Assembly: GCA_002712285.1 (NCBI GenBank)
Contig: PATC01000014.1
Coordinates: 10,402 to 66,768 of the forward strand
Reading direction: 5' to 3'
DNA length: 56,367 nucleotides
Source of the DNA: Methanobacteriota archaeon
GTDB lineage: Archaea > Thermoplasmatota > Poseidoniia > Poseidoniales > Thalassarchaeaceae
Every line of letters starts with the position of its first letter. Position 1 is the stretch's first letter. The notes under the pieces were generated by a model. The model saw nothing but the letters and a program-made list of their open reading frames with translations, had not been told where the DNA came from and ran no database searches. Of this stretch, positions 1,147 to 3,414 are shown piece after piece. The translations under genes were made by a program, and so were the position numbers.

Positions 1147-3414
1147 TCATGCGGCTCGAATTCCACCAGCGGTTCGGATTTTCTGACTTGCAAGAATGCC
1201 AATTTCATCAATAATTTCTTGAGTATTTTCTGGAAGTTTACTATCATCGAAACCAATAGGAAGTTGAATGCCTGGGCCTGGTACATCATCTAGGATATCC
1301 AATAGTCGATCCATTCGTTGGATGAGACCTCCATCACTATCCCAACAGCCACGGTGCTCACTTCTCACACGAACCCATTGATCGATATTATCCAGTAAAG
1401 GTTCCAATTCAATGGCAACCTCGGTCCATTCAGTTGGTTTGAATTTAGATTCAATCAATGGAATTAATCGAAGAAGACGTTGAATTCTAAGGTCACGACT
1501 TCGCGAGGATTCTACAATTAACGGGTCTTTTCCATTAATGCCAAGACGTGCCCTCAGATACAATTCTTCTTTGCTTTCAATGACGTCTTTTTCTTCAACG
1601 TAAGGTAATTGATCCACATCCTCAGCATCGATATTTTGGGTAGGCTCAACCGTTTCTTTCAACTCAATTTCTTGGACTTCTTCATCTACATTTACTGTAT
1701 TCTCTATCAGATTTTTTGATTCAATCATCATCATATTATCTGTTGTAGGTAAGTGTAGAGGTTTCTCCCAAGTTGACTCTTTTGTCTGCATATTGTAGTA
1801 GAATAGTTTGCCATCAGCAGCAGTCTTTTCTATCCAGACGTCATTGAAATCTTCTTTTTCAGATGATTCTTCTTTTCTTTCTAAATTCACATCTTCGTGT
1901 TTAATTTGTTTTTTGAACCACTCCTGCTCAAGTATTGAATTTCGAAGTTCTTCCGCTTCTTGCCGTTCTTTCTTCCGATTCCGAGTAATTTCTGCGTTTG
2001 CAATCCGCTTTTCAAACTCATCCAATGTCCATTCGTTGCATCCTTGGATGTTCATGCTGAGGGTTTCTGCTCTTGAGATCAACATGGAACGATGTCGTGT
2101 TTGTCGGTGTTTGAGACGACCAATTTCTGTGGATATTCCATCAAGGCTACTCTCTACCAACCATTCTCTTTGGATTGTAGAACGAATAGTCTCAATACGC
2201 ACTTTATCCATTGATTCATCAAGAGAATCTAGGGACTCAAGAAGTTCTTTTGCTAGAGATCCAGCACTTCGTTTTTGTCGCACATTTTCGTCAAGAGCAT
2301 GAGCCTCTATCCCGACGAAATTCTGAACATTTAGCCCTAATGAATCCCATTCACTAATCTGTTCTTTCGCCTCTTGTTCAATTTGTGAAATTCGACGTTC
2401 CCACGCATGTACTTCTTTGATTAATTCCTCAGAATAATCACCACGATCGATGATATCAAAGTTTAGAGATACACCGAGATCGCGAAGACGTTGAGAAGCA
2501 TCTAATGCACTCTGCCAATCGTTTTCTAATTCTTCGAGATTGACTTCAATTGAAGCAAGGTCCACCACTGATAGAGGGTTATCGTAAGGTAGCAGAAGCC
2601 CCCGTTCTCTCCATTCAAGGACTTTCTTTTTGATGATTACATCTTGTTCATTGATGTCAAGAATCTCGCGGTAAACAATCTCCTCAAGTTGTTTCACTGC
2701 ATCTATTGCTGGTTCTTTCCTTATTGTCTGAATTTCTTTCATTAGTGCCTCAGCCTTTGCTGCACGCCGAATTACAAACATTCTGATTTGATTTTCAATA
2801 TCCTCAAGTTGGTCTTCGAGATGTAGCCACTGATTTGCCTCTTCAAATCGCTCAATTAGATTAGATCCTTCACTAAATCGAATGGTCCAGCCTTTCTGTT
2901 GAAGTATACTTACGAGATCTTGTAGGACCCCCTCTCTTTCTCTCTGTTTTGCTTCGAGCGCCTCGATGTATCGTCGGATTGAATCTCTCGGTGCGACTTC
3001 CTCAATTGCTCGTACCAGATTGATTACATCTTCGCCTCCTCCTCGATCCAAGGTATTCAGGCGTCTCATCCAAGCTTGAAGTTCAACAGTTCGCCCCTCC
3101 ATAGACCAAAGTTCTCGAGCACGATCTGCAGCAAGAGTCCAGGGAGCAATACTTCGCAGATGTGTCATGTATTTGTCTCTGATTTCATCAACATCTTCTG
3201 GATGATTCAGTAGATGTGCTTGCATAACTGTCGGGATTTCGTTCATGATACTTGGAGCATCATCCAATAGTGTGATGAGTTCAACAGCTTCTTGGAGCCG
3301 GTGTTCTGCAGAAGCGACAGATTCACTGTTTGGTTCAGTCCCGAACAGAGCATCAACTGCCACTGAATCGAAGCCCTGTTTTATCCATCGTTCTCGATGA
3401 GCACCCCAGTCCAT
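1147..3414 (-). CDS. Large acidic coiled-coil protein containing one WW domain
   Basis: Long E/L/R-rich helical heptad-like sequence. Internal '[27 protein letters not shown]' (nt ~1759-1845) fits the WW consensus W-x21-W-x2-P with the central FYY. Start placed at MDWG (3414); the track starts at 3435. Confidence 0.75.
   Translation of the reverse strand: [755 protein letters not shown]

What the first reader, a model, noticed from the sequence alone, without database searches (positions are those of the whole stretch)
1759..1845. Canonical WW domain inside an archaeal coiled-coil protein
Seen: W-x21-W-x2-P with '[19 protein letters not shown]', set between acidic low-complexity, AT-rich linkers after a long coiled coil. 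Known: WW domains are mainly eukaryotic Pro-motif readers, for example the substrate-binding units of NEDD4-family E3 ligases. Inference: a eukaryote-like interaction module outside Asgard archaea, perhaps inserted recently. It lies under 5 kb from the Ubl gene and could be a substrate adaptor, though the link is not shown.
Basis: partly seen in the sequence, partly recalled or inferred. Interest (0 to 1): 0.7.

Follow-up and report, generated by a model that had tools for sequence, protein, structure and literature searches.

The report
True WW domain in marine archaeon
A Marine Group II (Poseidoniales) archaeon carries a genuine, conserved, eukaryote-type WW proline-peptide-binding domain in the flexible middle of a scaffold protein specific to this order; it looks like a splicing-factor-type WW taken from a eukaryote, not a NEDD4-like ubiquitin adaptor.

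Summary
The minus-strand ORF 1147..3435 (762 aa) holds a WW domain at residues 533-560. It scores 36 bits on Pfam PF00397 (cut-off 26.9) and is predicted as a three-stranded sheet, and Foldseek places it on the FBP11, FBP28 and Prp40 WW domains (probability 1.0, rmsd 0.7-1.5 Å, 54-63% identity). It sits between two acidic, AT-rich, disordered linkers.

The contig is not chimeric. Single contigs from three independent studies span the gene, and the gene order AhpC-TPR-host-DnaG holds across the order.

The host is an uncharacterised helical-repeat protein found full-length only in Poseidoniales. Only the window's genus carries the WW, in place of the fifth repeat that other genera keep. Within the genus the WW is the best-conserved segment (71% identity, against 34% for the N-terminal part and 10-12% for the linkers). 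The insertion is therefore lineage-specific but old.

Elsewhere in 401 genomes of the phylum, WW occurs only in one other genus of the same family (a further such genus turned up in the order sample), in unrelated membrane proteins. The closest relatives outside the order are eukaryotic.

The domain is of PRPF40/TCERG1 type (PPLP and polyproline binding), not NEDD4 type. The genome holds many such motifs, including "PPLPPGAMPPPPPP". No link to the Ubl cluster was found.

The parts
1147..3435 (-). Host gene. A 762-aa cytoplasmic protein made of a helical-repeat rod, a WW domain and a C-terminal helical domain. It is the positional ortholog of an uncharacterised family specific to Poseidoniales.
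   Evidence: ORF and translation. 33 homologs. Matched in 116 of 201 genomes of the order. Profile search: full-length matches only inside the order. No TM segment; maximum Kyte-Doolittle 19-residue mean is 0.94. No Pfam or NCBIfam family other than WW.
1906..3435 (-). N-terminal all-helical region (residues 1-510). Four ~90-aa repeats of long helices, each ending in W-x(2-4)-G-[FWL]-x-[VI].
   Evidence: AlphaFold2 pLDDT 80-93. Repeat motifs at residues 17, 183, 275 and 363. No significant structural relative: alpha-catenin VH1 and PRC1 have probability 0.14-0.25.
1840..1905 (-). Linker 1 (residues 511-532). Acidic, AT-rich, predicted disordered.
   Evidence: 41% D+E and 27% GC. pLDDT below 50. 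12% identity between the two clades of the genus.
1756..1839 (-). WW domain (residues 533-560), group II/III type (PRPF40 / TCERG1 / FBP11-like).
   Evidence: Pfam 36 bits against 26.9. PDB phmmer E 1e-10 to 1e-17. The isolated-domain AlphaFold2 model has three strands with core pLDDT 88-91. In Foldseek the 50 best-ranked matches listed are all WW or WW-like domains at probability 0.98-1.0, with FBP11 WW1 at rmsd 0.7 Å and 56% identity. W534, E536, A540, D541, G542, F545, N548, T551, K552, S554, W556 and P559 are invariant in 26 orthologs.
1570..1755 (-). Linker 2 (residues 561-622). Acidic, AT-rich, predicted disordered.
   Evidence: 29% D+E and 34% GC. pLDDT about 30. 10% identity between clades.
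1150..1569 (-). C-terminal helical domain (residues 623-762). It holds the order-wide motifs [11 protein letters not shown] and VPGPGxxLP, and the tail ...AGG(I/V)(R/K)A.
   Evidence: pLDDT 70-87. Matched in WW-less orthologs across the order. 60% identity between clades.
3397..5850 (+). Context: a divergently transcribed TPR protein with one N-terminal TM helix. The real start is probably the Met of MEPLTSAL... at about 3589. It is a conserved neighbour of the host gene across the order.
   Evidence: Pfam TPR families. TM segment at residues ~68-86 followed by KMNRR. Synteny in all 15 loci examined, across three families.

Best explanation
The segment encodes a genuine, folded WW domain that is kept by selection. 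It is the small three-stranded module that eukaryotic proteins use to bind proline-rich peptides.

Anatomy (shown):
- The host is a 762-aa cytoplasmic protein.
- It has a ~500-residue rod of four helical repeats, a disordered acidic linker, the WW, a second disordered acidic linker, and a ~130-residue conserved helical C-terminal domain.
- The host family is an uncharacterised scaffold found full-length only in Poseidoniales.
- Its gene always lies divergent from a membrane-anchored TPR protein gene, with the DnaG gene convergent on its other side.

History (distribution shown, direction inferred):
- In the ancestor of one genus, the fifth helical repeat carried by other genera was lost, and a WW now occupies its place.
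- The WW is of the PRPF40 / TCERG1 / FBP11 subtype and was most likely captured from a marine eukaryote.
- Two other genera of the same family carry different WWs on unrelated membrane proteins. These look like separate captures.

Mechanism (inferred, not shown):
- Held on two flexible tethers, the WW works as a docking hook for PPLP and polyproline tracts.
- Such tracts are abundant on cytoplasmic proteins and on the cytoplasmic tails of surface proteins in this genome.
- Docking would recruit those partners to the scaffold and to its membrane-anchored TPR neighbour.

It is not a NEDD4-like adaptor, and nothing ties it to the nearby Ubl system.
For: It is a real WW domain:
- Pfam score above the gathering cut-off, and the only hit in the genome.
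- PDB sequence matches at E 1e-10 to 1e-17 to PRPF40A, TCERG1, Prp40 and WBP4.
- AlphaFold2 predicts three strands.
- In Foldseek the 50 best-ranked matches listed are WW or WW-like domains at probability 0.98-1.0. The nearest are FBP11, FBP28 and Prp40 at rmsd 0.7-1.5 Å and 54-63% identity.

It is under selection:
- 71% identity between the two deep clades, against 34% (N-terminal part), 60% (C-terminal domain) and 10-12% (linkers).
- The XP-groove residues Y547 and W556, and S554, are invariant or nearly so.

It is not an artefact:
- Contigs from three independent studies span window 1-3414, 267-3829 and 658-3558 without joints.
- Synteny holds on both sides in 15 loci.
- A metatranscriptome contig covers 1243-2253.

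It is a lineage-specific insertion into an order-wide scaffold:
- WW is found in 8 of 201 genomes of the order, in 3 of 24 genera.
- WW is found in 3 of 401 genomes of the phylum, all in one family.
- The host's N- and C-terminal parts are found in 116 of 201 genomes and 16 of 24 genera.
- WW-less orthologs carry a conserved fifth repeat, 'EIDxWxxxGWDVxxL...LPWxRD', at the WW position.
- The host profile matches G000 at positions 8-513 and 791-912 only.

A eukaryotic source is likely:
- The nearest named relatives outside the order are eukaryotes: Heterosigma, Fugacium, Cylindrotheca and Mythimna.
- A pattern scan of 185,579 prokaryotic species finds this subtype almost only in Poseidoniales, in 14 of 15 loci. 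No viral contig carries it.
- The three archaeal WW types are 24-44% identical to each other, but 52-64% identical to eukaryote-type WWs.

Ligand class:
- PRPF40A WW1 binds PPLP through H149, Y157, Y159 and W168, and its best ligand is PPLPPGAPPPPPPPPP (PMC11079029). Here the equivalent residues are K537, F545, Y547 and W556.
- G000 encodes MTSDEENPPLPPGAMPPPPPP... (C44).
- G000 also has polyproline tails on giant surface proteins (C10, C47, C4) and two PPLPEGGLPxGW tails (C29, C46).
Against: - No binding was measured, and every structure here is predicted.
- The proline-rich tracts are not specific to WW-bearing genera. The C44 family and its polyproline arm occur in 182 of 201 genomes of the order, including WW-less genera. 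Having ligand motifs available is therefore not evidence that they are used.
- One of the four PRPF40A WW1 contact positions differs (His to Lys).
- Within the full-length model the WW reaches only pLDDT 61-68.
- Foldseek E-values are only about 1e-3, because the domain is tiny.
- The eukaryote-to-archaeon direction and the 'three captures' idea rest on 25 alignment columns. They also rest on a hit list chosen for similarity to this WW. This is not a phylogeny.
- The function of the host scaffold is unknown, so recruitment to a scaffold-TPR complex is conjecture.
Confidence: 0.6

Rival explanations
1. One reading: the WW is a NEDD4-like substrate-recognition unit that feeds targets to the neighbouring archaeal ubiquitin-like (Ubl / E1 / JAB) system.
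For: The Ubl cluster starts 4.7 kb away. Both the WW and this proximity are specific to the same genus. Earlier notes of this scan describe the cluster as a Ubl system with no E2 or E3 identified (not checked here).
Against: - NEDD4, YAP and Pin1 WWs are distant: E 0.2-0.4, against 1e-10 for PRPF40A.
- The second strand reads FYYNM and lacks the group-I His.
- There is no HECT, RING, C2 or any other domain.
- Two conserved genes on the opposite strand (TPR, AhpC) separate the host from the cluster, and the host gene points away from it.
- The host gene keeps its place next to TPR and DnaG in genera where the Ubl cluster is not nearby.
- No PPxY, PPLP or polyproline motif occurs in the Ubl, TFB paralog, CYTH, JAB or E1 proteins.
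- The genus-level co-occurrence is a single evolutionary event, so it has no statistical weight.
Confidence: 0.05
2. The WW is real but does not read polyproline partners in trans. It might bind a segment of its own protein as an autoinhibitory or conformational latch, for example the invariant VPGPGIQLP of the C-terminal domain. It might instead bind phospho-Ser/Thr-Pro like group IV WWs, or act mainly as a compact folded spacer.
For: - PRPF40A WWs are regulated by an intramolecular proline-rich segment (PMC11079029).
- The two other archaeal WW proteins have a proline-rich stretch right next to their WW: PPRAEMPPPSNERALPP in g11 and RPPPDHTQPPQPPMPTPGG in g7.
- The host's C-terminal domain has an invariant proline-containing motif.
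- PRPF40 and TCERG1 WWs are also known to bind the phosphorylated RNA polymerase II tail. This comes from my own knowledge and was not tested.
Against: - VPGPGxxLP is equally conserved in WW-less orthologs, so it did not evolve as a WW ligand.
- It lies inside a predicted folded domain, although the motif itself is modelled with low confidence (pLDDT below 50 at residues 718-724).
- Loop 1 (TAADGK) has no Arg of the Pin1 phosphate-binding type. This is read from the sequence plus established knowledge.
- The strong conservation of the exposed XP-groove residues argues for a ligand, not a spacer.
Confidence: 0.15
3. The WW is an old archaeal inheritance that most Poseidoniales and Thermoplasmatota have lost, not a capture from eukaryotes.
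For: WW occurs in three genera of one family, in three architectures. A 30-residue domain cannot give a decisive tree.
Against: - It is present in 3 of 24 genera of the order. In a 161-genus sample of the phylum it appears in only 2 genera, both in that same family. Vertical descent would need many independent losses.
- In the host protein the WW replaces an ancestral repeat that all other genera retain.
- The three archaeal WWs are less like each other (24-44%) than like eukaryote-type WWs (52-64%).
- This WW is 56-64% identical to animal PRPF40A and TCERG1 WWs.
Confidence: 0.1
4. Artefact: a chimeric contig, eukaryotic contamination, or a chance motif.
For: The genome is a 74%-complete MAG in 51 contigs.
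Against: - Independent assemblies from at least 12 studies hold the gene.
- Single contigs in three of them cross both ends of the WW and the gene's junction with DnaG; two of these also cross into the TPR gene.
- The same architecture is found in 11 species-level MAGs.
- Synteny is conserved.
- The window starts 10.4 kb inside the contig.
- Pfam E is 7e-9.
Confidence: 0.01

Closest known systems
WW domains of PRPF40A/FBP11 (WW1), TCERG1/FBP28 (WW2) and yeast Prp40: group II/III WW domains of spliceosome and transcription-elongation factors
   Same: - 56-64% identity over the ~25-residue core.
- The same W...FYYN...T.ESTWEKP signature.
- The predicted fold superposes at 0.7-1.5 Å.
- The XP-groove Tyr and Trp and the Ser before the second Trp are conserved.
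- Three of the four PRPF40A WW1 ligand-contact positions keep an aromatic residue.

   Different: - A single WW rather than a tandem, and no FF domains.
- The host is an archaeal helical-repeat protein with no relation to splicing.
- His149 of PRPF40A WW1 is Lys here.
- The organism has no spliceosome, so the partners must be different.
NEDD4-family / YAP group I WW domains (PPxY readers)
   Same: The same fold and the same two signature tryptophans. Foldseek also aligns these at probability 1.0.
   Different: - Only 24-34% identity.
- phmmer E 0.2-0.4 in the whole-protein search.
- The second strand reads FYYNM where group I has a hydrophobic residue followed by N/D-H (established knowledge).
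- No HECT, C2 or other catalytic partner domain.
Other Poseidoniales WW proteins found here: a g11 giant Ca-binding surface protein with a C-terminal cytoplasmic WW, and a g7 multipass membrane protein with an N-terminal WW
   Same: The same family of the same order. PF00397 scores above the cut-off (34-36 bits). The WW is on the predicted cytoplasmic side.
   Different: - Unrelated host proteins.
- Each WW lies directly next to its own proline-rich stretch.
- Only 28-44% identical to the WW studied here.
- Sporadic within their genera: 3 genomes of g11 and 1 of g7.
WW-less orthologs of the host protein in other Poseidoniales genera (unnamed family, 830-1000 aa)
   Same: - The same gene position between the TPR and DnaG genes.
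- The same N-terminal repeats and C-terminal domain.
- Also a long acidic linker.

   Different: They carry a fifth helical repeat where this protein has the WW. They have no Pfam or NCBIfam match at all.

Membership tests
WW domain (Pfam PF00397) | Profile-HMM score above the curated gathering threshold | tested here: met
   36.0 bits against 26.9, E 7.3e-9. 40.9 bits in the six-frame genome search.
WW domain (Pfam PF00397) | Two signature Trp 20-22 residues apart, and a Pro three residues after the second Trp | tested here: met
   W534, W556 and P559 in the translation. All three are invariant in 26 orthologs.
WW domain (Pfam PF00397) | Three-stranded antiparallel beta-sheet fold | tested here: met
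   AlphaFold2 strands at residues 534-538, 544-548 and 553-555, core pLDDT 88-91. The 50 best-ranked Foldseek matches listed are WW or WW-like domains at probability 0.98-1.0, rmsd 0.7-1.5 Å for the closest. This is a prediction, not an experiment.
WW domain (Pfam PF00397) | XP groove: a Tyr in the middle of strand 2 and the Trp at the end of strand 3 | tested here: met
   Y547 (at least 90% conserved) and W556 (invariant); S554 is invariant. Groove definition taken from bioRxiv 10.1101/2021.11.22.469489.
WW domain (Pfam PF00397) | Binds proline-rich peptides | not testable with these tools
   Needs peptide arrays, ITC or NMR. Candidate ligands are listed.
Group II/III WW (PRPF40/FBP11, TCERG1/FBP28, WBP4/FBP21 type) | The nearest sequence and structure neighbours belong to this group | tested here: met
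   phmmer E 2.6e-17 (TCERG1), 2e-15 (PRPF40A), 1e-13 (Prp40), 1.4e-10 (WBP4), against 1e-3 to 1e-2 for NEDD4, YAP and Pin1. Foldseek order.
Group II/III WW (PRPF40/FBP11, TCERG1/FBP28, WBP4/FBP21 type) | Ligand-contact residues of PRPF40A WW1 (H149, Y157, Y159, W168) | tested here: inconclusive
   The equivalents are K537, F545, Y547 and W556. Three of four keep an aromatic residue; His becomes Lys. Alignment, contact residues from PMC11079029.
PRPF40 / TCERG1 protein families (as whole proteins) | Tandem WW domains followed by FF domains | tested here: not met
   One WW only and no FF domain. The rest of the protein is an archaeal family. Only the domain subtype is shared, not the protein family.
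Group I WW / NEDD4-family E3 adaptors | PPxY-pocket signature (hydrophobic residue then N/D-H in strand 2) and close similarity to NEDD4/YAP WWs | tested here: not met
   Strand 2 reads FYYNM. NEDD4 and NEDD4L score E 0.2-0.37 in the whole-protein search. Identity is 24-34%. The pocket signature itself comes from established knowledge.
Group I WW / NEDD4-family E3 adaptors | Linked to a HECT (or other E3) catalytic domain, or shown to be linked to a ubiquitin-like system | tested here: not met
   No such domain. The Ubl cluster is adjacent only in this genus, with two opposite-strand genes in between. No proline motifs in the cluster's proteins.
Poseidoniales helical-repeat scaffold (unnamed host family) | N-terminal W-x(2-4)-G-[FWL] helical repeats, the C-terminal RDLRxxRLLRL...PGPGxxLP domain, and a gene position between the TPR and DnaG genes | tested here: met
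   Profile A3 matches G000 at positions 8-513 (E 1.9e-61) and 791-912 (E 8.8e-18). Synteny, repeats.

The most novel reading that the evidence does not exclude
One family of Poseidoniales, which are not Asgard archaea, has built a eukaryote-style adaptor network of a proline motif and its reader on the inner face of the membrane. WW readers were captured from marine protists at least three separate times. They plug into PPLP and polyproline tracts already present on a core cytoplasmic protein and on the cytoplasmic tails of many surface proteins.
Probability: 0.25. Interest if true: 0.7.

Novelty: new member of a known kind. Interest (0 to 1): 0.5.

Why it matters
WW domains are regarded as eukaryotic interaction modules. 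Here a bona fide WW is fixed and under strong purifying selection in a whole genus of one of the most abundant archaeal groups of the surface ocean.

The case shows three things:
- A eukaryotic peptide-recognition module can be grafted into the flexible linker of a native archaeal scaffold and then kept.
- One archaeal family seems to have taken up WW domains repeatedly.
- There is now a concrete candidate reader for the PPLP and polyproline motifs that decorate cytoplasmic tails of Poseidoniales surface proteins. Earlier notes of this scan reported no reader for these motifs (unchecked leads).

The domain is 30 residues long and the candidate ligands are short peptides, so the binding hypothesis can be tested directly in vitro without culturing the organism.

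The limits are clear. The domain itself is ordinary, automatic annotation already tags it (PF00397 is precomputed on the database homologs), and its function in the cell is inferred, not shown.

Tried and rejected
- Literature. Five searches combined 'WW domain' with Marine Group II, Poseidoniales, archaeal eukaryotic signature proteins, horizontal transfer in prokaryotes, or Euryarchaeota. None returned a description of archaeal WW proteins. This covers the held library only.
- Fold of the helical parts. Foldseek against PDB and BFVD gave nothing significant. The best were alpha-catenin VH1 and PRC1 at probability 0.14-0.25, and viral hits at TM about 0.1. I rejected a spectrin- or dystrophin-like reading for lack of evidence.
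- Family assignment of the host. Pfam on ten WW-less orthologs and NCBIfam on the host and two WW-less orthologs gave nothing.
- Viral origin. A pattern scan of IMG/VR with the WW alignment found no relative.
- Phylogeny of the WW. I did not build a tree on about 25 informative columns. I compared identities against 1,099 WW domains from the 150 best representatives instead. That set is biased towards this WW.
- The representative search is ranked by summed score, so proteins with many WW repeats dominate it and it says little about the donor.
- Ligand specificity. I asked whether the best candidate ligand, the C44 protein, is confined to WW-bearing genera. It is not.
- A strict search for the PPLP...GW tail tag in this genome found only two proteins.
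- Chimerism and contamination were rejected.
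Full report
**1. The observation**

The window's minus strand carries an ORF at 1147..3435 encoding 762 aa. Residues 533-560 read [28 protein letters not shown].

- Pfam WW (PF00397) scores 36.0 bits against a gathering cut-off of 26.9, E 7.3e-9.
- In a six-frame search of the whole 1.70-Mb assembly this is the only WW (40.9 bits), and the same search finds none in 14 control genomes.
- The flanks are acidic and AT-rich. Residues 511-532 have 41% D+E and 27% GC. Residues 561-622 have 29% D+E and 34% GC. The window average is 46% GC.

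**2. Not an artefact**

- The window starts 10.4 kb inside its contig.
- The gene is present in marine metagenome assemblies from at least 12 studies.
- In three of those studies a single contig spans window 1-3414, 267-3829 or 658-3558, with no joints. Each covers the DnaG stop, the whole WW gene and both linkers; the last two also run into the start of the TPR gene.
- The same gene, with its WW, is found in 11 species-level MAGs whose titles name Poseidoniales, Thermoplasmatota or 'Euryarchaeota'.
- A metatranscriptome holds a 1,011-nt contig covering 1243-2253, which is the WW with both linkers. DNA carry-over cannot be excluded.

**3. The fold**

- In the full-length AlphaFold2 model (mean pLDDT 76) residues 1-510 are all-helical (pLDDT 80-93). 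Residues 512-532 and 561-621 are disordered. The WW forms strands at pLDDT 61-68. Residues 625-750 form a helical domain at pLDDT 70-87.
- Predicted on its own, with 12 sequences, the WW gives three strands with core pLDDT 88-91.
- In Foldseek against PDB, the 50 best-ranked matches listed are WW or WW-like domains at probability 0.98-1.0. FBP11 WW1 leads at rmsd 0.7 Å and 56% identity, with FBP28 and Prp40 at 1.0-1.5 Å and 54-63%.
- The E-values are only about 1e-3, because the domain is tiny.

**4. Which kind of WW**

- phmmer against PDB puts TCERG1 (2.6e-17), PRPF40A (2e-15), yeast Prp40 (1e-13) and WBP4 (1.4e-10) far ahead of NEDD4, YAP and Pin1 (1e-3 to 1e-2).
- With the whole protein as query, NEDD4-type WWs fall to E 0.2-0.4.
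- Strand 2 reads FYYNM: three aromatic residues and no His after the Asn. By established knowledge that marks group II/III rather than group I (PPxY) WWs.
- The XP groove is a strand-2 Tyr plus the strand-3 Trp, with a Ser two residues before that Trp (bioRxiv 10.1101/2021.11.22.469489). Here these are Y547, W556 and S554, invariant or nearly so in 26 orthologs.
- PRPF40A WW1 contacts PPLP through H149, Y157, Y159 and W168 (PMC11079029). The equivalents here are K537, F545, Y547 and W556.

**5. The host protein and the history of the insertion**

- All 30 full-length database homologs, down to 37% identity, carry PF00397.
- WW is found in only 8 of 201 genomes of the order, in 3 of 24 genera. 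It is found in 3 of 401 genomes of the phylum, all in one family.
- The host's N-terminal (~1-480) and C-terminal (~645-760) parts are found in 116 of 201 genomes and 16 of 24 genera, in proteins of 830-1000 aa.
- Ten such proteins have no Pfam match, and the two tested have no NCBIfam match.
- They are positional orthologs. The order AhpC-like, TPR, host (divergent from TPR), DnaG (convergent) holds in all 15 loci examined, across three families.
- In the alignment, WW-less orthologs carry a fifth copy of the ~90-aa helical repeat at the WW position ('EIDxWxxxGWDVxxL...LPWxRD'). The window's genus has four repeats plus the WW.
- A profile of the WW-less proteins matches G000 only at positions 8-513 and 791-912.
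- The same profile finds full-length members only inside the order. It finds none in the small-genome genera of the family. Elsewhere in the phylum it gives only weak single-repeat matches.

The WW is present in both deep clades of the genus, whose host proteins are about 38% identical while their DnaG proteins are about 82% identical. The WW is the best-conserved part of the protein between these clades: 71%, against 34% for the N-terminal region, 60% for the C-terminal domain and 10-12% for the linkers.

**6. Origin**

- A pattern scan of one genome from each of 185,579 prokaryotic species finds this WW subtype in 15 loci. Fourteen are Poseidoniales-type MAGs. IMG/VR has none.
- Against 1.84 billion representative proteins, 2,539 match at E ≤ 1e-3. 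Of the ten I looked up, the five that carry an organism name are all eukaryotes: Heterosigma, Fugacium, Cylindrotheca and two proteins of Mythimna.
- Two other genera of the same family have WWs in unrelated proteins:
  - One is at the extreme cytoplasmic C-terminus of a 969-aa Ca-binding-repeat surface protein.
  - The other is at the N-terminus of a 270-aa multipass membrane protein.
  - Each lies next to a proline-rich stretch, and both pass Pfam.
- The three archaeal types are 24-44% identical to each other but 52-64% identical to eukaryote-type WWs.

I read this as capture from eukaryotes, probably more than once. This rests on about 25 columns and a biased comparison set, so it is an inference and not a tree.

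**7. How it probably works**

Shown: a folded, selected WW of PPLP/polyproline-reading type hangs on two flexible tethers between a rod and a helical end domain. The protein is cytoplasmic (no TM segment). Its conserved neighbour is a TPR protein with one N-terminal TM helix followed by KMNRR.

Inferred: the WW docks proline-rich partners onto this scaffold. Candidate partners are plentiful in the same genome:
- a soluble protein starting MTSDEENPPLPPGAMPPPPPP... This is almost the PPLPPGAPPPPPPPPP peptide that is PRPF40A's best ligand.
- a protein with APPTPPMDAPPAPP and PPPPPGM repeats
- polyproline stretches in the tails after the last TM of three giant surface proteins
- two tails ending ...PPLPEGGLPxGWTMDQW...

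Caveat: the first protein and its polyproline arm occur across the order, in 182 of 201 genomes, including WW-less genera.

Earlier notes of this scan describe these tails and PPLP motifs in other Poseidoniales and report 'no WW-like reader found'. I treat those as leads only.

**8. The Ubl idea**

- The Ubl cluster (from 6541) lies near the host gene only in this genus. Two conserved genes on the opposite strand separate them, and the host gene points away.
- None of the cluster's proteins, nor DnaG, TPR or AhpC, has a PPxY, PPLP or polyproline motif.
- The WW is not of NEDD4 type, and no E3-type domain is present.

I found nothing in favour beyond proximity.

**9. Verdict**

This is a canonical WW domain, so a new member of a known kind. 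Its setting is unusual: an old, genus-wide graft of a splicing-factor-type eukaryotic WW into an order-specific archaeal scaffold. It occurs in a lineage that carries other WW captures and many polyproline motifs. The interest is moderate. The binding hypothesis can be tested directly in vitro.

Noticed in passing
G000 C44:33770-34966 (+) (outside the window; locus L045): A 391-aa soluble protein whose first ~110 residues are polyproline repeats, starting MTSDEENPPLPPGAMPPPPPPGG. This nearly matches the best PRPF40A WW ligand in human SF1. Its non-proline part is a core protein of the order (182 of 201 genomes) with no Pfam family. A polyproline arm is also present in WW-less genera.
   Followed up: partly
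G000 C35:31165-31518 (+) at a contig end, and C13:2-2977 (+) at a contig start: Probably one gene broken by the assembly inside a proline-rich repeat (PPPPPGM..., APPTPPMDAPPAPP...). It continues with an acidic middle part and ends in a C-terminal zinc ribbon.
   Followed up: no
G000 C10:23687-28741, C47:13997-19588, C4:5966-10705, C29:18622-22032(-), C46:25665-28091(-): Large surface proteins (about 800-1860 aa) whose tails after the last TM helix carry PPPP or PPLP stretches. Two of them (C29, C46) end in the same ...PPLPEGGLPxGWTMDQW..YG..WL module. C10 adds a zinc ribbon.
   Followed up: partly
L074:676-3585 (+) (G041 C14, genus g11); also L009, L010: A 969-aa protein with a signal peptide, many DxDGDG Ca-binding-type repeats, a weak LDL-receptor class A hit, one TM helix and a KKKK stop-transfer. 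It continues with the proline-rich stretch PPRAEMPPPSNERALPP and ends in a WW domain as its very last residues. This looks like a second, independent WW context.
   Followed up: partly
L006:650-1462 (+) (G085 C19, genus g7): A 270-aa protein with an N-terminal WW (36.4 bits), immediately followed by RPPPDHTQPPQPPMPTPGG and then several TM helices. It was seen in one of the sampled genomes of that genus.
   Followed up: no
window 1150-1190 (-): C-terminal tail of the host protein and of its orthologs: Many members of the host family end in a conserved tail, (L/I)P(S/L)AGG(I/V)(R/K)A: a di-glycine followed by 2-4 residues. Here it reads TAGGIRAA. It is predicted disordered. Its meaning is unknown, and the resemblance to capped ubiquitin-like C-termini may be coincidental.
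   Followed up: no
The genome search, (phylum sample): The host family is absent from the small-genome (1.3-1.5 Mb) genera of its own family. Single copies of its ~90-aa helical repeat match weakly (E 1e-6 to 1e-14) inside 700-1700-aa proteins of other Thermoplasmatota families. The repeat may be a wider, unnamed module.
   Followed up: no
L070:3001-3057 (Candidatus Epulonipiscioides saccharophilum MAG, LNZM01000002.1): This is the only non-Poseidoniales prokaryotic locus matched by the WW pattern scan (68% identity over 19 residues). It could be a bacterial WW, host contamination or chance.
   Followed up: no
window 1144-1149: The DnaG-like gene (1..1146, +) and the WW host gene (1147..3435, -) converge with their stop codons directly abutting, so there is no intergenic space for a terminator.
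   Followed up: no
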